In this document: positions 5,271 to 48,208 of the stretch, piece by piece
How positions within the stretch are numbered: the first letter of the stretch is position 1
How the letters are laid out: each line of letters opens with the position of its first letter
Source of the DNA: Escherichia coli
Lineage (GTDB): Bacteria; Pseudomonadota; Gammaproteobacteria; Enterobacterales; Enterobacteriaceae
Assembly (NCBI RefSeq): GCF_009931435.1
Contig: NZ_CP043414.1
Direction: 5' to 3' (one strand)
Length of the DNA: 64,000 nucleotides
The notes under the pieces: model-generated
Seen by the model: the letters and a program-made list of their open reading frames with translations, nothing else
Told to the model about the DNA's origin: nothing
Databases searched by the model: none
Translations under genes and position numbers: made by a program

Positions 5271-5456
5271 ATGAAAATATAACCTACGAAATTGCAACAT
5301 TTAAACAACAAAACAGCATCTAATATGGCGCTATTCATAATTAACGATTTATTATTTGGGGTGTGATCGTTTTTTGTTGATCTTCTTCACAGTTTATAGC
5401 CTTTTCATGGATAGAATAACTCTACCTTCAACTGACACAGCAAAAGGTAAAGGTAA

Positions 5457-10968: not shown

Positions 10969-11075
10969 CATGCCGGATGCGGCGTGAACGCCTTATCCGT
11001 CCTACAAAATAGTGCAAATTCAATATATTGCACCATCCTCGTAGGCCTGATGAACGTAGCGTATCAGGCTATCAT
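10969..11075. repeat. BIME / REP palindromic units
   Basis: tgccggatgcggcgtgaacgccttatcc ... gtaggcctgatgaacgtagcgtatcaggc, canonical REP consensus in inverted pair. Confidence 0.85.
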
Positions 11076-17988: not shown

Positions 17989-18342
17989 GGGTTAATCCTC
18001 TTTGACGTATAAATTGCTGCACCAAAGGTGAACAGCGAAAAAAATAAAAATTAAAAAAGTAGCGTTGAGAAAAGTCTCGCTGACTACAGGAACAGACTAT
18101 TTTTCGCGACGCGAATTATCAATCTCTTTCTGTAACCAGAATGTAAGAACATGAGCAACCGCACATATTTTGATGATTTTTGTTACAAGGCTTAAGTTTG
18201 TAGTTGAAAGGTTTACAAAAGAATAAAAGCCTGAGTTTCCAGCAAGATGAAAGCGGTTACATTTTATTTAATTATGCTTTGTGATTTTAAATTTGTTTTA
18301 TGGATAAATTGTGAAACGGAATTAATTCGCGAAGAAAAGCAG

Positions 18343-18567: not shown

Positions 18568-20232
18568 CTACTCGCCTACTTTCGCCCAGGTATCACGCAG
18601 CCCAACGGTGCGGTTAAATACCGGTTTTTCCGCCGTAGAATGGCGGCTGTCGAGGCAGAAATAACCTTCACGCTCAAACTGGAATGCTTTGCCCGCTACC
18701 GCGTCTTTCAGCGACGGTTCAGCAAAGCCCTGTTTGATCACCAGCGATTCCGGGTTAATCACCGACAGGAAATCATCCGCAGCACCTGGGTTCGGCACGC
18801 TGAACAGACGATCGTACAGGCGGATTTCAACCGGCAGCGCATGTGCCGCGCTCACCCAGTGAATAACGCCTTTCACTTTACGACCATCTGCCGGATCTTT
18901 GCTTAAGGTGTCGGCGTCATAAGTACAGAAGATGGTGGTGATGTTGCCTTCGGCATCTTTCTCCACGCGTTCAGCCTTAATGACGTAAGCATTACGCAGA
19001 CGCACTTCTTTACCCAGCACCAGACGTTTGTACTGCTTGTTAGCTTCTTCGCGGAAATCGGCGCGGTCGATCCAAATCTCACCGCTAAACGGCACCTGAC
19101 GGCTGCCCATTTCCGGTTTGTTCGGATGGTTCGGCATGGTGACCATTTCGCCTTCGCCCTGATAGTTTTCGATAACCAGTTTCACCGGATCGATAACTGC
19201 CATTGCGCGCGGGGCGTTTTCGTTGAGATCTTCACGAATGCAGGATTCCAGCGACGCCATCTCAATGGTGTTGTCCTGCTTGGTCACGCCAATGCGTTTG
19301 CAGAACTCACGAATAGAAGCCGCAGTGTAACCACGACGACGCAGACCGGAAATGGTCGGCATACGAGGATCATCCCAGCCTTCAACGTGCTTGTCGGTCA
19401 CCAGCAGGTTCAGCTTACGCTTGGACATCACGGTGTATTCCAGATTCAGGCGCGAGAATTCGTACTGGCGCGGGTGAACAGGAATGGTGATGTTATCCAG
19501 CACCCAGTCATACAGGCGACGGTTGTCCTGGAATTCCAGCGTACACAGAGAGTGCGTAATACCTTCCAGCGCATCGCTGATGCAGTGGGTGAAGTCGTAC
19601 ATCGGGTAGATGCACCACTTGTTACCGGTCTGGTGGTGTTCAGCAAACTTAATGCGGTACAGCACCGGATCGCGCATCACGATAAACGGCGAAGCCATGT
19701 CGATTTTCGCGCGCAGGCAGGCTTTACCTTCTTCAAAACCACCGGTACGCATTTTTTCGAACAGCGCCAGGTTCTCTTCAACGCTGCGGTCGCGGTACGG
19801 GCTGTTTTTACCCGGCTGAGTCAGGGTGCCACGATATTCGCGGATCTGTTCCGGTGTCAGTTCATCAACATACGCCAGGCCTTTATTGATCAGTTCGATC
19901 GCATAGGCGTGGAGCTGATCAAAATAATCGGAGGAGTAACGGACGTTACCAGACCAGTGAAAACCTAACCACTCTACGTCGTTTTTGATCGAATCGACAT
20001 ACTCGATATCTTCTTTTACCGGGTTAGTGTCGTCGAAACGCAGGTTGCACTGGCCTTTATAGTCCTGGGCGATCCCGAAGTTCAGGCAGATAGATTTCGC
20101 ATGGCCAATATGCAGATAGCCATTCGGCTCCGGCGGGAAACGGGTGTGTACTGTGGTGTGCTTACCACTGGCCAGATCTTCATCGATGATCTGACGGATA
20201 AAGTTAGTCGGGCGGGCTTCTGCCTCACTCAT
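18568..20232 (-). CDS. glnS: glutaminyl-tRNA synthetase
   Basis: ORF track 18568..20232, 554 aa; class I HIGH (HIGH at N-terminus) and MSK motifs. Confidence 0.97.
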
Positions 20233-20499: not shown

Positions 20500-22446
20500 T
20501 TACTTTTTGATTTCATACAGCGGCGTTTGACCCGCCACAACATGACCCTGAGCTTTAATGATAAGGCCGCTGAAATCGTCGATATTGCTGCAAACCACCG
20601 GGCTAATCATCGAACGGGCGTTAGCGTTCAGGTAATCCAGATCCATTTCCAGAATCGGTTGCCCTGCGCTTACTTGCGCCCCCTCTTCCACCAAACGTTT
20701 AAAGCCTTTGCCTTCCAGCGCTACGGTGTCGATACCCATATGGACGACAATCTCAGCGCCTTTTTCGGTTTCCAGGCAGAACGCGTGATTGGTGTTGAAG
20801 ATTTTTACGATTGTCCCTGCGGCTGGCGATACGACGATTTTATCCGTCGGTTTCACCGCCACACCGTCACCCACCGCTTTGCTGGCAAATGCTTCGTCAG
20901 GAACCTGATCCAGCGCCACAACATCACCGGTAATCGGCGATACCAGCTCCGCGACAGACACCGCGTTTGGTACGGCCTGCGGTTTTGCTACAGGCACGGT
21001 AGTTGCAGGCGCAGTTTCAGCAGAGGCGGCTGCTACCGGACCACGGGCAACGACTTTCTTCATTGCATCGCCAATGGATTCCGCTTTCGCGCCAACAATC
21101 ACCTGAATAGTCTGTTTGTTCAGTTTCACTACCCCAGAAGCACCCAGACGTTTACACATCGTATCGTTAACGCGGGCAGAGTCAGCCACGGTCAGACGCA
21201 GACGGGTGATACAGGCGTCAATCGCTTTCAGGTTGTCAGTACCGCCAACCGCAGCAATATAGTTGGTCGCCAGTTGAGTCAGGCCTTCCTCGGTATTGCT
21301 GTTGGCTTCTTCAGTAACGATCTCGTCTTCTTTATCTTCGCGACCCGGCGTTTTCAGATTGAACATGCGGATAACCACACTGAACACCACGAAGTAGATA
21401 GCGAAGAACACAACCCCCATCACCAGCAGCATCCAGACGTTCTGGCTGGCGGCCGGCAGGTTATACATCAACGCGTAGTCGATAGCCCCCGCAGAGAAGG
21501 AGAAGCCAGCATGGATACCCAGCAGCGTTGCCACAAACAGGCTGATACCCGTCAGCAGTGCGTGCAGGAGGTACAGCAGCGGTGCAAGGAACATGAACAG
21601 GAATTCCAGCGGCTCAGTCACACCGGTCAGGAACGCAGTAACAGCAACAGAAAGCAGCATACCGCCAACCATCGGACGACGCTCTTTCGGTGCTGCGAAG
21701 TACATCGCCAGCGCCGCGCCCGGCAGACCGAACATCATAATCGGGAAGAAGCCGGACATGAACATCCCCGCGGTGCCGTCACCGGCATAGAAGCGGTTAA
21801 TGTCGCCGTGGAAAACCGTACCCGCCGCGTTGGTGAATTCACCAATCTGGAACCAGGCGATGGTGTTCAGCACCTGATGCAGACCGGTTGGGATCAGCAG
21901 ACGGTTGATGAAACCAAAGATACCGGAACCCAGCGCGCCCGCAGAAACGATCCATTCGCCGCCTGCATGGATAGCGTGCTGTACCGGTGGCCAGACGTAA
22001 CCAAAAATGGCCGCCAGCACCAGGCAGAAGAAGCCGGTGGCGATCGGCACAAAACGTTTGCCGCCGAAGAAGCTCAGGAAGTCCGGCAGTTTAATATCGG
22101 ACCAACGGTTATAGGCAGCACCACCGACCAGACCGGTAATGATACCCGCCAGTACACCCATGTTAATTTCTGGGTTGATGGTCACCATCGCTTTGGTTAA
22201 CACAAAGTAACCGACCGCACCCGCCAGCGCCGCCGCACCTGCGCTGTCTTTCGACCAGCTGGATGCCACACCGATGGCGAAGATTAATGCGAGGTTATCA
22301 AAAATCGCACCGCCCGCCTGGGCAATAAACGCAACGTTAAGTAAATCTGGCTGACCGAATCGCAGCAACAGTGCCGCCACCGGCAGCACCGCGATAGGGA
22401 GCTGTAACGCCCTACCGAGTCGCTGGAAAAAACCTAAAATATTCAT
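20500..22446 (-). CDS. nagE: PTS N-acetylglucosamine-specific EIICBA
   Basis: ORF track 20500..22446, 648 aa; N-terminal multi-TM EIIC, EIIB CITRLR cysteine motif, C-terminal EIIA. Confidence 0.96.
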   Translation of the reverse strand: MNILGFFQRLGRALQLPIAVLPVAALLLRFGQPDLLNVAFIAQAGGAIFDNLALIFAIGVASSWSKDSAGAAALAGAVGYFVLTKAMVTINPEINMGVLAGIITGLVGGAAYNRWSDIKLPDFLSFFGGKRFVPIATGFFCLVLAAIFGYVWPPVQHAIHAGGEWIVSAGALGSGIFGFINRLLIPTGLHQVLNTIAWFQIGEFTNAAGTVFHGDINRFYAGDGTAGMFMSGFFPIMMFGLPGAALAMYFAAPKERRPMVGGMLLSVAVTAFLTGVTEPLEFLFMFLAPLLYLLHALLTGISLFVATLLGIHAGFSFSAGAIDYALMYNLPAASQNVWMLLVMGVVFFAIYFVVFSVVIRMFNLKTPGREDKEDEIVTEEANSNTEEGLTQLATNYIAAVGGTDNLKAIDACITRLRLTVADSARVNDTMCKRLGASGVVKLNKQTIQVIVGAKAESIGDAMKKVVARGPVAAASAETAPATTVPVAKPQAVPNAVSVAELVSPITGDVVALDQVPDEAFASKAVGDGVAVKPTDKIVVSPAAGTIVKIFNTNHAFCLETEKGAEIVVHMGIDTVALEGKGFKRLVEEGAQVSAGQPILEMDLDYLNANARSMISPVVCSNIDDFSGLIIKAQGHVVAGQTPLYEIKK

Positions 22447-22567
22447 CTTATTCCCCCTACGAGAACCCTATTTGGCTCGTTTAAAGCCGTATTTTTATTT
22501 TGCTGCAAATTGTACTGCCGATGTTCTGTAATCAGATTGTTAGATCATCTGCTACAGAGTGTGTGAA

Positions 22568-22594
22568 AATTTAATTCGTATCGCAAATTAAACG
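22568..22594. promoter_or_regulatory. candidate NagC operator in the nagE-nagB divergent control region
   Basis: AT-rich dyad aatttaattcgtatcgcaaattaaa with central CG-N4-CG, resembling NagC/Mlc sites. Confidence 0.4.
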
Positions 22595-22601
22595 CGTGTC
22601 T

Positions 22602-22623
22602 TTTGTGAGTTTTGTCACCAAAT
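22602..22623. promoter_or_regulatory. CRP binding site
   Basis: ttTGTGAgttttgTCACCa fits TGTGA-N6-TCACA. Confidence 0.6.
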
Positions 22624-22778
22624 ATCGTTATCATCACTCCCTTTTACTGGCTAAACCAGAAAACTTATTTTATCATTCAAAAAATCAGGTCGGATTGACG
22701 CCTGTCTGCGCAAATCCAGGTTACGCTTAAAGATGCCTAATCCGCCAACGGCTTACTTTTTACTTACTGAGGTGAATA

Positions 22779-23579
22779 ATGAGACTGATCCCCCTGACTA
22801 CCGCTGAACAGGTCGGCAAATGGGCTGCTCGCCATATCGTCAATCGTATCAATGCGTTCAAACCGACAGCCGATCGTCCGTTTGTTCTGGGTCTGCCGAC
22901 TGGCGGCACGCCGATGACCACCTACAAAGCGTTAGTTGAAATGCATAAAGCAGGCCAGGTCAGCTTTAAGCACGTTGTCACCTTCAACATGGACGAATAT
23001 GTCGGTCTGCCGAAAGAGCATCCGGAAAGCTACTACAGCTTTATGCACCGTAATTTCTTCGATCACGTTGATATTCCAGCAGAAAACATCAACCTTCTCA
23101 ACGGCAACGCCCCGGATATCGACGCCGAGTGCCGCCAGTATGAAGAAAAAATCCGTTCTTACGGAAAAATTCATCTGTTTATGGGCGGTGTAGGTAACGA
23201 CGGTCATATTGCATTTAACGAACCAGCGTCTTCTCTGGCTTCTCGTACTCGTATCAAAACCCTGACTCATGACACTCGCGTCGCGAACTCTCGTTTCTTT
23301 GATAACGATGTCAATCAGGTGCCAAAATATGCCCTGACTGTCGGTGTTGGTACATTGTTGGATGCCGAAGAAGTAATGATTCTGGTGCTGGGCAGCCAGA
23401 AAGCACTGGCGCTGCAAGCCGCCGTTGAAGGTTGCGTGAACCACATGTGGACCATCAGCTGTCTGCAACTGCATCCGAAAGCCATCATGGTGTGCGATGA
23501 ACCTTCTACCATGGAGCTGAAAGTTAAGACTTTAAGATATTTCAATGAATTAGAAGCAGAAAATATCAAAGGTCTGTAA
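22779..23579 (+). CDS. nagB: glucosamine-6-phosphate deaminase
   Basis: ORF track 22779..23579, 266 aa. Confidence 0.96.
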
Positions 23580-23597
23580 TTGTTATCCCTGCCCTGA

Positions 23598-24788
<1,191 letters not shown>

Positions 24789-24796
24789 GAGAAAGT

Positions 24797-26017
24797 ATGA
24801 CACCAGGCGGACAAGCTCAGATAGGTAATGTTGATCTCGTAAAACAGCTTAACAGCGCGGCGGTTTATCGCCTGATTGACCAGTACGGGCCAATCTCGCG
24901 GATTCAGATTGCCGAGCAAAGCCAGCTTGCCCCCGCCAGCGTAACCAAGATTACGCGTCAGCTTATCGAACGCGGGCTGATCAAAGAAGTTGATCAGCAG
25001 GCCTCCACCGGGGGCCGCCGCGCTATCTCCATTGTCACCGAAACCCGCAATTTCCACGCAATCGGCGTACGGCTTGGTCGTCATGACGCCACCATCACCC
25101 TGTTTGATCTCAGTAGCAAAGTGCTGGCAGAGGAACATTACCCGTTGCCTGAACGCACTCAGCAAACGCTGGAACATGCCCTGCTGAATGCCATTGCTCA
25201 GTTTATTGATAGCTACCAGCGCAAACTGCGCGAGCTGATCGCCATTTCCGTGATCCTGCCAGGGCTTGTTGACCCGGACAGTGGCAAAATTCATTACATG
25301 CCGCATATTCAGGTAGAAAACTGGGGACTGGTAGAAGCACTGGAAGAACGTTTTAAAGTGACCTGTTTTGTCGGCCACGATATCCGCAGTCTGGCACTGG
25401 CAGAGCACTACTTCGGTGCAAGCCAGGATTGCGAAGACTCCATTCTGGTGCGTGTCCATCGCGGGACCGGGGCCGGGATTATCTCTAATGGGCGCATTTT
25501 TATTGGCCGCAACGGCAACGTCGGTGAAATTGGCCATATTCAGGTCGAACCGCTGGGTGAACGCTGCCACTGCGGCAACTTTGGCTGCCTGGAAACTATC
25601 GCCGCCAACGCTGCCATTGAACAACGGGTGTTGAATCTGTTAAAGCAGGGCTACCAGAGCCGTGTGCCACTGGACGACTGCACCATCAAAACTATCTGCA
25701 AAGCCGCGAACAAAGGCGACGGTCTGGCGTCGGAAGTGATTGAATATGTTGGTCGTCATCTGGGTAAAACCATCGCCATTGCTATCAACTTATTTAATCC
25801 GCAAAAAATTGTTATCGCTGGTGAGATCACCGAAGCCGATAAAGTGCTGCTCCCTGCTATTGAAAGCTGCATTAATACCCAGGCATTGAAGGCATTTCGC
25901 ACCAATCTGCCCGTGGTACGTTCTGAGCTGGATCACCGCTCGGCAATCGGCGCTTTTGCGCTGGTAAAACGCGCCATGCTCAACGGTATTTTGCTCCAGC
26001 ATTTGCTGGAAAATTAA
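24797..26017 (+). CDS. nagC: ROK-family transcriptional repressor NagC
   Basis: ORF track 24797..26017, 406 aa; N-terminal HTH, ROK CxCGxxGC zinc motif (HCGNFGC). Confidence 0.96.
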   Translation: MTPGGQAQIGNVDLVKQLNSAAVYRLIDQYGPISRIQIAEQSQLAPASVTKITRQLIERGLIKEVDQQASTGGRRAISIVTETRNFHAIGVRLGRHDATITLFDLSSKVLAEEHYPLPERTQQTLEHALLNAIAQFIDSYQRKLRELIAISVILPGLVDPDSGKIHYMPHIQVENWGLVEALEERFKVTCFVGHDIRSLALAEHYFGASQDCEDSILVRVHRGTGAGIISNGRIFIGRNGNVGEIGHIQVEPLGERCHCGNFGCLETIAANAAIEQRVLNLLKQGYQSRVPLDDCTIKTICKAANKGDGLASEVIEYVGRHLGKTIAIAINLFNPQKIVIAGEITEADKVLLPAIESCINTQALKAFRTNLPVVRSELDHRSAIGAFALVKRAMLNGILLQHLLEN

Positions 26018-26064
26018 TGTGCTTTTATAGTGGCGCTTATTGTTGTCAATATTCTGGGTAGTCC

Positions 26065-26817
26065 ATGACCATTAAAAATGTAATTTGCGATATCGACGGC
26101 GTGCTGATGCACGATAACGTCGCCGTACCGGGTGCAGCGGAATTTTTGCACGGGATTATGGATAAAGGCCTGCCGCTGGTGTTGCTGACCAACTATCCTT
26201 CGCAGACCGGGCAAGATCTGGCGAACCGCTTTGCCACTGCGGGTGTCGATGTGCCGGACAGCGTGTTTTATACCTCCGCGATGGCGACCGCCGATTTCCT
26301 GCGTCGCCAGGAAGGTAAGAAAGCGTATGTGGTGGGCGAAGGCGCACTGATTCATGAACTGTACAAAGCCGGTTTCACTATTACCGATGTGAACCCTGAT
26401 TTTGTGATTGTTGGCGAAACGCGTTCCTACAACTGGGACATGATGCATAAAGCAGCCTATTTCGTCGCTAACGGTGCACGCTTTATCGCCACCAACCCGG
26501 ACACCCACGGGCGCGGTTTTTATCCGGCCTGTGGCGCGCTATGCGCGGGGATCGAAAAAATCTCCGGACGTAAACCGTTCTATGTTGGTAAGCCGAGTCC
26601 GTGGATCATCCGCGCAGCATTAAACAAAATGCAGGCGCATTCGGAAGAAACGGTGATTGTCGGCGATAACTTGCGCACCGACATTCTGGCGGGCTTCCAG
26701 GCCGGTCTGGAGACGATTCTGGTGCTTTCTGGTGTTTCATCGCTCGACGATATCGACAGTATGCCGTTCCGCCCAAGCTGGATTTACCCGTCAGTCGCTG
26801 AAATCGACGTTATCTGA
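26065..26817 (+). CDS. nagD: HAD-family UMP phosphatase NagD/UmpH
   Basis: ORF track 26065..26817, 250 aa; DxDG (CDIDGV) HAD motif at N-terminus. Confidence 0.94.
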   Translation: MTIKNVICDIDGVLMHDNVAVPGAAEFLHGIMDKGLPLVLLTNYPSQTGQDLANRFATAGVDVPDSVFYTSAMATADFLRRQEGKKAYVVGEGALIHELYKAGFTITDVNPDFVIVGETRSYNWDMMHKAAYFVANGARFIATNPDTHGRGFYPACGALCAGIEKISGRKPFYVGKPSPWIIRAALNKMQAHSEETVIVGDNLRTDILAGFQAGLETILVLSGVSSLDDIDSMPFRPSWIYPSVAEIDVI

Positions 26818-29688: not shown

Positions 29689-29765
29689 GGCTACGTAGCT
29701 CAGTTGGTTAGAGCACATCACTCATAATGATGGGGTCACAGGTTCGAATCCCGTCGTAGCCACCA
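29689..29765 (+). tRNA. metT: tRNA-Met (CAU, elongator)
   Basis: 77-nt cloverleaf ggctacgtagctcagttggttagagcacatcactCATaatgatg...cgtagccacca with encoded CCA. Confidence 0.97.
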
Positions 29766-29773
29766 TCTTTTTT

Positions 29774-29858
29774 GCGGGAGTGGCGAAATTGGTAGACGCA
29801 CCAGATTTAGGTTCTGGCGCCGCAAGGTGTGCGAGTTCAAGTCTCGCCTCCCGCACCA
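29774..29858 (+). tRNA. leuW: tRNA-Leu (UAG)
   Basis: 85-nt gcgggagtggcgaaattggtagacgcaccagattTAGgttctgg... long variable arm, CCA end. Confidence 0.97.
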
Positions 29859-29881
29859 TTCACCAGAAAGCGTTGTACGGA

Positions 29882-29956
29882 TGGGGTATCGCCAAGCGGT
29901 AAGGCACCGGTTTTTGATACCGGCATTCCCTGGTTCGAATCCAGGTACCCCAGCCA
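29882..29956 (+). tRNA. glnU: tRNA-Gln (UUG)
   Basis: 75-nt tggggtatcgccaagcggtaaggcaccggtttTTGataccgg...ccccagcca. Confidence 0.97.
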
Positions 29957-29990
29957 TCTTCTTCGAGTAAGCGGTTCACCGCCCGGTTAT

Positions 29991-30065
29991 TGGGGTATCG
30001 CCAAGCGGTAAGGCACCGGTTTTTGATACCGGCATTCCCTGGTTCGAATCCAGGTACCCCAGCCA
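29991..30065 (+). tRNA. glnW: tRNA-Gln (UUG)
   Basis: Identical 75-nt copy of the UUG tRNA-Gln. Confidence 0.97.
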
Positions 30066-30080
30066 TCGAAGAAACAATCT

Positions 30081-30157
30081 GGCTACGTAGCTCAGTTGGT
30101 TAGAGCACATCACTCATAATGATGGGGTCACAGGTTCGAATCCCGTCGTAGCCACCA
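30081..30157 (+). tRNA. metU: tRNA-Met (CAU, elongator)
   Basis: Second 77-nt copy identical to metT. Confidence 0.97.
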
Positions 30158-30205
30158 AATTCTGAATGTGTCGAATGCGTTCGGCAAATTCACAAACCAA
30201 TTTGT

Positions 30206-30280
30206 TGGGGTATCGCCAAGCGGTAAGGCACCGGATTCTGATTCCGGCATTCCGAGGTTCGAATCCTCGTACCCCAGCCA
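30206..30280 (+). tRNA. glnV: tRNA-Gln (CUG)
   Basis: 75-nt tggggtatcgccaagcggtaaggcaccggattCTGattccgg...ccccagcca. Confidence 0.97.
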
Positions 30281-30317
30281 ATTTATTCAAGACGCTTACC
30301 TTGTAAGTGCACCCAGT

Positions 30318-30392
30318 TGGGGTATCGCCAAGCGGTAAGGCACCGGATTCTGATTCCGGCATTCCGAGGTTCGAATCCTCGTACCCCAGCCA
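30318..30392 (+). tRNA. glnX: tRNA-Gln (CUG)
   Basis: Second identical CUG tRNA-Gln copy. Confidence 0.97.
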
Positions 30393-37875: not shown

Positions 37876-38784
37876 ATGCAATTACGTAAACCTGCCACAG
37901 CAATCCTGGCCCTGGCGCTTTCCGCAGGCCTGGCACAGGCAGATGACGCCGCCCCGGCAGCGGGCAGTACGCTGGACAAAATCGCCAAAAACGGTGTGAT
38001 TGTCGTCGGTCACCGTGAATCTTCAGTACCTTTCTCTTATTACGACAATCAGCAAAAAGTGGTGGGTTACTCGCAGGATTACTCCAACGCCATTGTTGAA
38101 GCAGTGAAAAAGAAACTCAATAAACCGGACTTGCAGGTGAAACTGATTCCGATCACCTCACAAAACCGTATTCCGCTGCTGCAAAACGGCACTTTCGATT
38201 TTGAATGTGGTTCAACCACCAACAACGTCGAACGCCAAAAACAGGCGGCTTTCTCTGACACTATTTTCGTGGTCGGTACGCGCCTGCTGACCAAAAAAGG
38301 CGGCGATATCAAAGATTTTGCCGACCTGAAAGGCAAAGCCGTAGTCGTTACTTCCGGCACTACCTCTGAAGTTTTGCTCAACAAACTGAATGAAGAGCAA
38401 AAAATGAATATGCGCATCATCAGCGCCAAAGATCACGGTGACTCTTTCCGCACCCTGGAAAGCGGTCGTGCCGTTGCCTTTATGATGGATGACGCTCTGT
38501 TAGCCGGTGAGCGAGCGAAAGCGAAGAAACCAGACAACTGGGAAATCGTCGGCAAGCCGCAGTCTCAGGAAGCCTACGGTTGCATGTTGCGTAAAGACGA
38601 TCCGCAGTTCAAAAAGCTGATGGATGACACTATCGCTCAGGTGCAGACCTCCGGTGAAGCGGAAAAATGGTTTGATAAGTGGTTCAAAAATCCAATTCCG
38701 CCGAAAAACCTGAACATGAATTTCGAACTGTCAGACGAAATGAAAGCACTGTTCAAAGAACCGAATGACAAGGCACTGAACTAA
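37876..38784 (+). CDS. gltI: glutamate/aspartate ABC transporter periplasmic binding protein
   Basis: ORF track 37801..38784; start placed at ATG 37876 (MQLRKPATAILALALSAGLAQA signal peptide) with aaggag upstream, 302 aa. Confidence 0.94.
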   Translation: MQLRKPATAILALALSAGLAQADDAAPAAGSTLDKIAKNGVIVVGHRESSVPFSYYDNQQKVVGYSQDYSNAIVEAVKKKLNKPDLQVKLIPITSQNRIPLLQNGTFDFECGSTTNNVERQKQAAFSDTIFVVGTRLLTKKGGDIKDFADLKGKAVVVTSGTTSEVLLNKLNEEQKMNMRIISAKDHGDSFRTLESGRAVAFMMDDALLAGERAKAKKPDNWEIVGKPQSQEAYGCMLRKDDPQFKKLMDDTIAQVQTSGEAEKWFDKWFKNPIPPKNLNMNFELSDEMKALFKEPNDKALN

Positions 38785-38789
38785 TTACA

Positions 38790-38941
38790 AGAACCAGGGG
38801 CGGAAATTCCAGCCCTCTCGATTGTTACGTAGCACGGACAGACTATACGCCTGATGGTCGTTCCCCATCGGGCCTGAAAACCGCAATACGCTGGGTAACA
38901 ATCTTCGAGGGTAGCAGTTAACGCTGCTACCCTCTTTTTTC
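38790..38941 (+). ncRNA. sroC: sRNA SroC region (gltI 3' end / gltI-gltJ spacer), ending at an intra-operon terminator
   Basis: 169-nt spacer between gltI and gltJ ending in gagggtagcag ttaacg ctgctaccctc + T7 (38907..38941); 5' boundary not determinable from sequence alone. Confidence 0.5.
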
Positions 38942-38953
38942 TGGAGTAGATTT

Positions 38954-46780: not shown

Positions 46781-48208
46781 TCACCCGAACAGATGAAGTA
46801 TTTTCCCTATCAAACCAGCAAAGATAAAAATATAGAAAATAATTTTAATGATGCCCAGACAGCCCGGCCCACCATCGTCAACGGGCATTGGCTGCGGTTG
46901 CGGCTCCGGCTCGACGGTTTGTTGCCCGGCAAAATTCGCCGACTGAATTAATAATCGTCGAATTATTAATGCGTCCAGAGGACAACGATCTTCTGCATCA
47001 AGGCGGGCGACGATCGGCATCAATGATTCTTCTGTAGGTTGGCTGGTCTGCACTAATTGTTTAGCAACTAAATATAATGTCCATAAGGGATGCTGTGTAT
47101 CACGCGTGAGTGAGATTCGCGGCTTACGCCCTTTGTGCAAAACCATCTCAACCAGAGAACGCCCCAGCGCAGAGAGTTTCTCATCGCTGAGTATTTCGTA
47201 TAATTGAAAGCGCGTACGCGCACTGTCACCAGGAACATAAAGTAACGGTTTCCCCTGATCGTTAACCAGTTCACGTGCTTCAATCATCATCACGACTAAC
47301 GGGTAATAATCGACCCGATGCTGACGGCACCATTGCAACATTAAAGCATCCGCCTGGGTGGAGGGATACTCGCGCCAGTAGTCACAAAGTTCTGCCAGCA
47401 GGCTTTCGCCTTCTCCACAATAGACGCGTTGCGCGTATTCATAATAACGCGCATCTTCATTATCAGGTTCAGCTTCCCGCCACGACCGGGCGTAATCCAG
47501 AAGTTCGGGGATATCCAGACGGCTTGTGCTATACCAGCGGAGTAAATTTCTGTGCAAATTTGCATCATCGGGGATAATCACTGCGCGATGTTGCGCTAAA
47601 TACAATGTCAGCCATTCTGGATGCGATGACCAAATCCGCGCGAACATTTGGTAAAAATCAATGGTGTCATTTTGTACGGCAACGGGCAGATGCAGAATGG
47701 TCTGGAAGTTAAAAACATTCCCCTTCGCAATGGCATATAAAAAGGATTCCAGTTCTTCTTCGTCTATTTCCCCGACGTTTTCCTCCTGCAACCACCGCAA
47801 TCTTTCTGCTAATAACACCACGCACTCGAAGGATAAATGGGCAGTGTTCATGGCTATTGTGCACAGCGACCAGCGTAATTCATCAATATCTTCCATCGAG
47901 CAATAATTTAATTGCTGAATGAATCGCTGCCAGGCAGAGGGCAGAAAACGTTCGCTATCAGAGGCGAGTAACGCACGAAAGGCGAGCAGAATTTCATGTT
48001 CTGCAACTTCATGTTCTTCTGGTTGCCAAACAGATTTAGCAGGCGACTGCGCAATCCGTAGCGCCTCCTCATACGCCTGACGAAGTTGTTTAAAACCCTG
48101 CGGATCGGTTTCTGGATGAAAGGACGGTAACAGCGCCAGATAAGCGCGGCGGATAATATCGACGTCAGTTGTTTCCTCTATGTTGAGGATCTTCCAGCAA
48201 TTTTTCAT
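46781..48208 (-). CDS. djlB: tail-anchored J-domain protein (paralog of DjlC)
   Basis: ORF track 46781..48208, 475 aa; same N-terminal J-like segment (…[24 protein letters not shown]) and C-terminal anchor ([18 protein letters not shown]). Confidence 0.85.

What the first reader, a model, noticed from the sequence alone, without database searches (positions are those of the whole stretch)
22447..22778. nagE-nagB divergent control region with CRP site and NagC-like operator
The 332-bp divergent spacer carries a good CRP site (22602..22623) and an AT-rich dyad typical of NagC/Mlc operators (22568..22594). A second AT-rich box lies near 22664..22692, at a spacing compatible with repression loops. 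nagC itself is encoded in the same operon two genes downstream.
Basis: partly seen in the sequence, partly recalled or inferred. Interest (0 to 1): 0.2.

Follow-up and report, generated by a model that had tools for sequence, protein, structure and literature searches.

The report
Known E. coli nagE-nagB control region

Summary
The 332-bp spacer 22447-22778 is the E. coli nagE-nagBACD divergent control region. It is present in 5424 of 5426 complete E. coli genomes and differs from K-12 at four positions, none in a binding site.

- The dyad at 22570-22592 is letter for letter the published nagE NagC operator.
- The box at 22664-22686 is the published nagB NagC operator.
- The 22-mer at 22601-22622 is the CRP site that a RegulonDB-derived table places at -61.5 (nagE) and -70.5 (nagBACD).

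Matrices built without the nag sites rank the two operators 2nd and 3rd, and the CRP site 2nd, in the 64-kb window.

In 53 Enterobacterales spacers the operator centres lie 94 bp apart in 47, 93 in 5 and 95 in 1. TGTGA is invariant while the CRP N6 spacer varies freely.

The mechanism is the published one. NagC bound cooperatively at both operators loops the DNA and blocks both promoters. GlcNAc-6-phosphate releases it, and cAMP-CRP activates both promoters.

Already known; low interest.

The parts
22447..22778 (.). nagE-nagB divergent intergenic control region (332 bp)
   Evidence: It is bounded by the nagE and nagB start codons. It is present in 5424 of 5426 complete E. coli genomes. It has 4 substitutions against K-12 MG1655, none in a binding site.
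22570..22592 (-). nagE NagC operator (weak; T/A at positions -11/+11). It covers about -20 to -42 of PnagE, including the inferred -35 hexamer.
   Evidence: Exact match to TTTAATTTGCGATACGAATTAAA in PMC3098098 Table 1. It scores 18.9 bits on the leave-out NagC matrix, rank 2 of the window. Mean identity is 92% across 53 Enterobacterales spacers. Its weakness and dependence on the nagB operator are stated in PMC4288165.
22601..22622 (.). Main cAMP-CRP (CAP) site TTTTGTGAGTTTTGTCACCAAA, centre 22611.5
   Evidence: Listed with this exact sequence at -61.5 (nagE) and -70.5 (nagBACD), and found by Genomic SELEX (PMC3105977 supplement). It is the only core match with at most one mismatch in the window. 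It scores 9.19 bits, rank 2. TGTGA is 100% conserved, TCACC 97% and the N6 spacer 51% across 53 species.
22664..22686 (+). nagB NagC operator (strong; C at positions -11 and +11). It covers about -18 to +5 of PnagB, including the inferred -10 hexamer and the start site.
   Evidence: Exact match to CTTATTTTATCATTCAAAAAATC in PMC3098098 Table 1. It scores 13.8 bits, rank 3. Mean identity is 94% across 53 species.
22567..22588 (.). Second CRP site listed in RegulonDB (AAATTTAATTCGTATCGCAAAT), overlapping the nagE operator
   Evidence: PMC3105977 Table S4 gives it at -27.5 (nagE) and -104.5 (nagBACD). Its core at 22570-22585 scores 8.61 bits, rank 5 in the window. Its role was not tested here.
22550..22586 (-). 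PnagE: start site 22550, -10 CACACT (22563-22558), -35 TTGCGA (22586-22581)
   Evidence: The start site is derived from the CRP position of -61.5 in the RegulonDB-derived table. The hexamers are my inference. AGTGT at 22558-22562 is nearly invariant in 53 species, and reads TACACT on the nagE strand in Pantoea, Erwinia and Serratia. The simple consensus scan found no strong promoter, as expected for CRP-dependent promoters.
22648..22682 (+). PnagB: -35 TGGCTA (22648-22653), 17-bp spacer, -10 TATCAT (22671-22676), start site 22682
   Evidence: The start site is derived from the CRP position of -70.5. TGGCTA, and TATCAT or TATGAT, are conserved across species. The hexamer assignment is inference.
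20500..22446 (-). nagE, the GlcNAc-specific PTS transporter IIABC
   Evidence: NF007608 equivalog, 1445.6 bits against a cut-off of 1010.
22779..26817 (+). nagBACD operon: nagB 22779-23579, nagA 23640-24788, nagC 24797-26017, nagD/umpH 26065-26817
   Evidence: NCBIfam equivalogs all score above their cut-offs. NagC NF047937 scores 718 bits against 650. NagC carries the NagC-type linker motif TGGRR (motif defined in PMC4288165).

Best explanation
This is the E. coli nagE-nagBACD divergent promoter region, and it works as already published.

Two back-to-back sigma-70 promoters start transcription at about 22550 (nagE, leftward) and 22682 (nagB, rightward).

Without amino sugars, the ROK-family repressor NagC, encoded in the operon at 24797-26017, binds the strong nagB operator at 22664-22686. 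That operator lies over the -10 hexamer and the start site. NagC binds cooperatively to the weak nagE operator at 22570-22592, which lies over the -35 hexamer. The centres are 94 bp apart, about nine helical turns, so the two sites face the same side of the helix. The DNA between them is looped, and both promoters are shut.

GlcNAc-6-phosphate, made when NagE imports GlcNAc, releases NagC.

cAMP-CRP binds the site centred at 22611.5. This lies inside the loop, at -61.5 from nagE and -70.5 from nagB, and CRP activates both promoters from there.

Shown here: sequence identity to the published sites, matrix ranks, and conservation of the sites and their spacing. Taken from papers: protein binding, looping, induction and the CRP positions. 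Inferred: the promoter hexamers.
For: - The genes were identified by equivalog models. The spacer is present in 5424 of 5426 complete E. coli genomes and is 99% identical to K-12, with no change in any site.
- Both operators match PMC3098098 Table 1 exactly. They rank 2nd and 3rd of about 128,000 positions with a matrix that excludes them.
- The CRP 22-mer is identical to the RegulonDB entry at -61.5 and -70.5, and nagB and nagE were recovered as CRP targets by Genomic SELEX. It ranks 2nd on the matrix.
- In 53 Enterobacterales spacers the operator-to-operator distance is 94 bp in 47, 93 in 5 and 95 in 1. The distances from the start codons to the operators vary far more: 110-186 bp on the nagE side and 102-121 bp on the nagB side.
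- The CRP centre lies 30.5 bp from the nagE operator centre in 48 of the 53. The TGTGA half-site is invariant while the N6 spacer is only 51% conserved. Conservation drops to about 50-65% between the sites.
- The looping requirement and the weak/strong operator asymmetry are stated in PMC4288165 and PMC5401889. Induction by GlcNAc-6-phosphate is stated in PMC3551598 and PMC8964723.
- NagC has the GGRR linker that specifies NagC-type operator recognition.
Against: Nothing found contradicts it. There are limits to the evidence.
- The CRP matrix alone is weak evidence. Markov-random sequence gives about 7 hits this good per 64 kb, or 0.036 per 332 bp.
- The nagB operator score of 13.8 bits would arise about 0.7 times per 64 kb by chance.
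- The consensus promoter scan found no promoter in the spacer, so my hexamer assignments rest on conservation and on start sites taken from a table.
- The primary footprinting papers (Plumbridge and Kolb 1991, 1993, 1998; Plumbridge 2001) could not be read here.
- No binding was measured for this particular strain's sequence.
Confidence: 0.97

Rival explanations
1. The left dyad at 22570-22592 is really an Mlc operator, so nagE would be under glucose/Mlc control rather than NagC control.
For: It has T/A at positions -11/+11, the hallmark of Mlc sites. PMC4288165 calls it a hybrid Mlc/NagC site that NagC alone does not repress. Mlc and NagC sequence logos are essentially indistinguishable.
Against: The same paper reports no cross-regulation between the two regulons at physiological protein levels. 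It also reports that, with the nagB operator present, the site is preferentially regulated by NagC. The strictly conserved 94-bp phasing with the strong NagC operator fits cooperative NagC binding, not an independent Mlc site.
Confidence: 0.02
2. The AT-rich boxes are conserved only because they are promoter elements (-10, -35 or UP-like DNA), not because a repressor binds them.
For: Both boxes overlap the inferred promoter hexamers: TTGCGA lies inside the nagE box and TATCAT inside the nagB box. AT-rich DNA is common in promoters.
Against: Conservation extends over the whole 23 bp, including the TT/AA at positions -6,-5/+5,+6 and the outer arms well beyond the hexamers. Both boxes are exact published operators. 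They outrank all but one site in the window on a matrix trained on unrelated NagC operators. The exact 94-bp spacing between two divergent promoters has no explanation from promoter function alone. Overlap with promoter elements is how repression works, so it is not an alternative to it.
Confidence: 0.01
3. The left dyad works mainly as the second CRP site that RegulonDB lists at -27.5 from nagE, with CRP rather than NagC as its main ligand.
For: PMC3105977 Table S4 lists AAATTTAATTCGTATCGCAAAT as a CRP site. Its core scores 8.61 bits, rank 5 in the window.
Against: It lacks both consensus half-sites (TTTAA...TCGCA against TGTGA...TCACA). Its conservation pattern, with invariant TT-N9-AA arms, follows the NagC dyad rather than a CRP dyad. 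The Genomic SELEX box reported for this spacer is the main site only.
Confidence: 0.05

Closest known systems
E. coli K-12 nagE-nagBACD regulatory region (Plumbridge and Kolb; RegulonDB entries for NagC and CRP)
   Same: It is the same locus. Gene order is the same and the spacer length is the same (332 bp). The nagE operator, the nagB operator and both listed CRP sites are identical, and the operator spacing is 94 bp.
   Different: There are four single-base substitutions in the spacer relative to MG1655, at window positions 22483, 22632, 22757 and 22767. All lie outside the operators, the CRP sites and the inferred hexamers. NagE is 98.8% identical to the K-12 protein.
Other two-operator NagC loop systems in E. 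coli (chbB, glmUS, fimB, manX)
   Same: They use the same repressor and the same 23-bp quasi-palindrome with TT/AA at positions -6,-5/+5,+6. They also need two sites and DNA looping.
   Different: Here the two operators each sit on one of two divergent promoters, with a CRP site inside a short 94-bp loop. At glmUS, NagC activates rather than represses.
Mlc operators (for example ptsG)
   Same: The logo is nearly indistinguishable, and the nagE operator shares the A/T at positions -11/+11 typical of Mlc sites.
   Different: The nagB operator has C at both outer positions, the NagC signature. Regulation in vivo is by NagC.

Membership tests
NagC operator | 23-bp quasi-palindrome with invariant TT at -6,-5 and AA at +5,+6 from the centre (PMC4288165) | tested here: met
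   nagE operator 22570-22592: TT at 22575-76 and AA at 22586-87, centre 22581. nagB operator 22664-22686: TT at 22669-70 and AA at 22680-81, centre 22675. Both arms are conserved in 53 species.
NagC operator | C or G at positions -11/+11 in high-affinity NagC sites, against A/T in Mlc sites | tested here: met
   The nagB operator has C at both ends. The nagE operator has T and A, exactly as published for the wild-type weak nagE operator. So the feature is met for the strong site and knowingly absent from the weak one.
NagC operator | Scores like known operators on a matrix built from independent NagC sites | tested here: met
   The scores are 18.9 and 13.8 bits, against 16.5-24.0 bits for the 8 training sites. 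They rank 2nd and 3rd in 64 kb. The nagB operator falls slightly below the training range.
NagC operator | Physical binding by NagC, released by GlcNAc-6-phosphate | not testable with these tools
   Published for the identical sequences. PMC5401889 used nagE-nagB as its positive control for footprinting and gel shifts. Induction is described in PMC3551598 and PMC8964723.
NagC repression loop (nagE-B type) | Two operators on the same face of the helix (a whole number of turns apart), with cooperative binding | tested here: met
   The centres are 94 bp apart, or 8.95 turns at 10.5 bp per turn. The distance is 94 bp in 47 of 53 species, 93 in 5 and 95 in 1, while the flanking distances vary by tens of bp. 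Cooperativity itself comes from the literature.
NagC repression loop (nagE-B type) | A cognate NagC repressor with a NagC-type linker (GGRR) is encoded in the genome | tested here: met
   NF047937 equivalog at 718 bits against a cut-off of 650. The motif STGGRRAIS is present, and its role is defined in PMC4288165.
Class I CRP-dependent promoter site | Match to TGTGA-N6-TCACA with G at position 4 and C at position 13 | tested here: met
   TGTGAGTTTTGTCACC matches 9 of 10 core positions, with G4 and C13 present. It scores 9.19 bits, the 75th percentile of 124 RegulonDB sites.
Class I CRP-dependent promoter site | Centred near -61.5, -71.5 and so on from the transcription start | tested here: inconclusive
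   The positions -61.5 (nagE) and -70.5 (nagBACD) come from the RegulonDB-derived table. The start sites were not determined here. The conserved hexamers I inferred are consistent with them.
Class I CRP-dependent promoter site | Conservation pattern of a dimer site: half-sites fixed, spacer free | tested here: met
   Identity is 100% for TGTGA, 97% for TCACC and 51% for the N6 spacer across 53 species.

The most novel reading that the evidence does not exclude
Outside the three known binding sites, the transcribed leaders carry short blocks conserved across Enterobacterales. The nagB leader has CCAGGTTACGCTTAA (about 22717-22731) and TCCGCCAAC (about 22741-22749). The nagE leader has TTTTTATT(G/T)TG (about 22491-22501 on the + strand). 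These could mark an undescribed extra layer of control, such as a small-RNA or protein binding site on the mRNAs, or another DNA-binding factor.
Probability: 0.12. Interest if true: 0.3.

Novelty: already known. Interest (0 to 1): 0.05.

Why it matters
It matters little as a discovery. This is a textbook example of repression by DNA looping combined with CRP activation at divergent promoters, mapped experimentally from 1989 to 2015.

It is a useful positive control for the scan. A reader working from raw sequence alone placed all three sites to within a few bases.

The comparative result obtained here is a tidy independent confirmation of the looping model, but not a new idea. It shows strict retention of the 94-bp operator spacing and of the 30.5-bp distance from the CRP site to the nagE operator centre in 53 Enterobacterales species. 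This holds even where the divergent transporter gene is a form only about 55% identical to E. coli NagE.

Tried and rejected
- **Consensus promoter scan of the spacer.** It found no sigma-70 promoter. The promoters are weak and activator-dependent, so I assigned the hexamers from conservation instead.
- **Primary papers.** Plumbridge 2001 (PMC29661), El Qaidi 2008 (PMC2446801), Plumbridge 1995 (PMC394474), Plumbridge and Kolb 1998 (PMC147383) and Plumbridge 1996 (PMC177988) are not held. The site sequences and positions therefore come from secondary open-access tables.
- **RNA element in the spacer.** Rfam found nothing there. The two roughly 100-nt leaders do not fold better than shuffled sequence, with z-scores of -1.86 and -0.83. 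I rejected a structured RNA element.
- **Terminator-like hairpin at 22473-22489.** It lies on the strand antisense to the nagE leader, has a 5-bp stem, and such hits are at chance level. I treated it as chance.
- **Partial spacer match in E. coli C9.** I suspected a different nagE allele. It turned out to be an IS4-like insertion in the spacer.
- **CRP matrix.** I considered building one from sites recalled from memory and rejected that. I used the published table instead.

Full report
**What is there.** The window segment 22447-22778 is the 332-bp spacer between two divergent ORFs, 20500-22446 (minus strand) and 22779-23579 (plus strand). NCBIfam equivalog models name the flanking genes, all scoring above their curated cut-offs:
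- glnS, 18568-20232 (minus)
- nagE, 20500-22446 (minus)
- nagB, 22779-23579
- nagA, 23640-24788
- nagC, 24797-26017
- nagD/umpH, 26065-26817

The order matches the K-12 MG1655 annotation. The spacer is found in 5424 of 5426 complete E. coli genomes, at 95% identity or more. It differs from MG1655 by four substitutions, at window positions 22483, 22632, 22757 and 22767. So the window is Escherichia coli or a very close relative such as Shigella.

**Checking the three elements against published sites.** Table 1 of the FITBAR paper (PMC3098098) lists ten experimentally known NagC operators.
- The nagB operator CTTATTTTATCATTCAAAAAATC occurs exactly at 22664-22686 on the plus strand.
- The nagE operator TTTAATTTGCGATACGAATTAAA occurs exactly at 22570-22592 on the minus strand.
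- A third listed operator, ybfM/chiP proximal, occurs at 18098-18120.

Both nag operators have the family's invariant TT at -6,-5 and AA at +5,+6. The nagB site has C at both outer positions. The nagE site has T and A there. PMC4288165 describes this as the reason the nagE operator is weak and depends on cooperative binding with the nagB operator through a loop.

For CRP, Table S4 of PMC3105977 is drawn from RegulonDB. It lists aacgcgtgtcTTTTGTGAGTTTTGTCACCAAAtatcgttatt as a CRP site at -70.5 for nagBACD and -61.5 for nagE. The same paper recovered this box by Genomic SELEX and counts nagB and nagE among confirmed CRP targets. The table also lists a second CRP site, AAATTTAATTCGTATCGCAAAT (22567-22588), at -27.5 and -104.5. 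That site overlaps the nagE operator.

The listed positions put the transcription starts at 22550 (nagE, minus strand) and 22682 (nagB, plus strand).

- A symmetrised NagC matrix from the eight operators that are not in this spacer gives 18.9 bits for the nagE operator and 13.8 bits for the nagB operator. These are ranks 2 and 3 of all positions in the 64 kb, behind only the chiP operator. The order is the same when chiP is also left out. In Markov-random sequence such scores are expected 0.02 and 0.7 times per 64 kb.
- A CRP matrix from 124 RegulonDB cores, nag entries excluded, gives 9.19 bits for 22604-22619. That is rank 2 in the window and the 75th percentile of the training sites. The matrix is noisy, with about 7 such hits expected per 64 kb of random sequence, or 0.036 per 332 bp.
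- The plain core pattern with at most one mismatch occurs once in the window, here, against 1.73 expected.

Taken alone the CRP score is modest, so comparative evidence carries more weight.

**Comparative evidence.** One scan of the genome collection, using a degenerate pattern in nagB codons 11-17, returned 120 loci. Of these, 53 are Enterobacterales loci with nagE divergent from nagB. The three-site architecture is present in all 53.
- The operator centre-to-centre distance is 94 bp in 47, 93 in 5 and 95 in 1.
- The CRP centre is 30.5 bp from the nagE operator centre in 48 and 29.5 bp in 5.
- By contrast, the distance from the nagE start codon to its operator ranges from 110 to 186 bp. The distance from the nagB operator to the nagB ATG ranges from 102 to 121 bp.

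Column identity to the window sequence is as follows:

| Segment | Mean identity |
|---|---|
| nagE operator | 92% |
| nagB operator | 94% |
| CRP TGTGA half-site | 100% |
| CRP TCACC half-site | 97% |
| CRP N6 spacer | 51% |
| Segments between the sites | 50-64% |
| nagE-side leader segment (22447-22549) | 50% |
| nagB-side leader segment (22687-22778) | 56% |

This is the footprint expected of two dimer-binding sites held in fixed helical phase.

**Promoters (inferred).** Three further conserved blocks fit promoter hexamers at the tabulated start sites.
- AGTGT at 22558-22562 reads CACACT on the nagE strand, and TACACT in Pantoea, Erwinia and Serratia. This is the -10 hexamer of PnagE.
- TTGCGA at 22586-22581, 17 bp upstream and inside the nagE operator, is the -35 hexamer of PnagE.
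- TGGCTA at 22648-22653, together with TATCAT or TATGAT at 22671-22676 inside the nagB operator, are the -35 and -10 hexamers of PnagB.

So NagC at the nagE operator covers the -35 region of PnagE. NagC at the nagB operator covers the -10 region and the start of PnagB. The consensus scan found no promoter, which is consistent with weak, CRP-dependent promoters.

**Mechanism.** The best explanation is the published one. NagC carries the NagC-type GGRR linker (PMC4288165). It binds the strong nagB operator and, cooperatively, the weak nagE operator nine helical turns away, looping the DNA and repressing both promoters. GlcNAc-6-phosphate releases NagC. cAMP-CRP at 22601-22622 activates both promoters from class I-type positions.

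From my own recollection of Plumbridge and Kolb 1998, which I could not read here, the CRP-induced bend also helps the loop to form. This would explain RegulonDB's 'dual' label. I mark that as unverified.

**Rivals.** I considered three: an Mlc site, promoter elements only, and a CRP site in place of the NagC site at the left dyad. All are weak, for the reasons given in the rivals section.

**Other checks.** Rfam finds nothing in the spacer. The two leaders do not fold significantly better than shuffled sequence.

**Verdict.** The region is already known in detail, and interest is low.

Noticed in passing
window 18098-18120 (minus strand): Exact copy of the published ybfM/chiP proximal NagC operator GATAATTCGCGTCGCGAAAAATA, in the glnS-chiP spacer. 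It is the top-scoring NagC site of the whole window (24.0 bits, and 20.7 bits when left out of the matrix). The CRP Genomic SELEX table also lists a box in the glnS-ybfM spacer.
   Followed up: partly
loci L008, L015, L016, L020, L022, L028, L042-L044, L052, L054 and others: The gene divergent from nagB comes in two forms across Enterobacterales. One is K-12-like NagE (81-100% identity). The other is only about 37-58% identical in the tblastn matches that begin at the N-terminus, many of which span the whole protein. It is found in many Enterobacter, Klebsiella, Pantoea, Erwinia and Lelliottia. Both forms keep the same operator-CRP-operator spacer architecture.
   Followed up: partly
L028 4026-6041 (contig NZ_JAATUR010000059.1, titled E. 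coli SCPM-O-B-8794): This locus has a chimeric NagE. The IIC-IIB part is of the divergent form, while the C-terminal IIA domain is 100% identical to the window protein. NagB is 99.6% identical. The divergent segment is absent from all 5426 complete E. coli genomes. It is either a rare recombinant or an assembly artefact.
   Followed up: partly
L122 (E. coli C9, NZ_CP010129.1), corresponding to about window 22553: An IS4-like (ISVsa5-family) element is inserted in the nagE-nagB spacer, next to the nagE -10 and start-site region. It separates nagE from its operator, the CRP site and its promoter.
   Followed up: yes
window about 22717-22731, 22741-22749 and 22491-22501: Short blocks in the nagB and nagE 5' leaders are conserved in most of the 53 Enterobacterales spacers: CCAGGTTACGCTTAA, TCCGCCAAC and TTTTTATT(G/T)TG. 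They lie outside the known protein-binding sites. No significant RNA fold was found and their function is unknown.
   Followed up: partly
window 22447-22778: No complete E. coli genome in the collection matches the spacer at 100%. The best match is 99.7%, with a one-base length difference. NagE is 98.8% identical to K-12. The source may be an uncommon E. coli lineage or Shigella, but it was not identified.
   Followed up: no
window 38780-38942, 29689-30389 and 11006-11048: Rfam hits elsewhere in the window: the sroC sRNA (174.8 bits), a cluster of seven tRNA genes, and the ES036/CssrF sRNA (45.5 bits).
   Followed up: no
window 46930-46952 and 5376-5391: The next-best NagC-matrix hit is CAAAATTCGCCGACTGAATTAAT (12.5 bits). 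The top CRP-matrix hit is GTTGATCTTCTTCACA (9.86 bits). Both are at scores that chance can produce, and their context was not examined.
   Followed up: no
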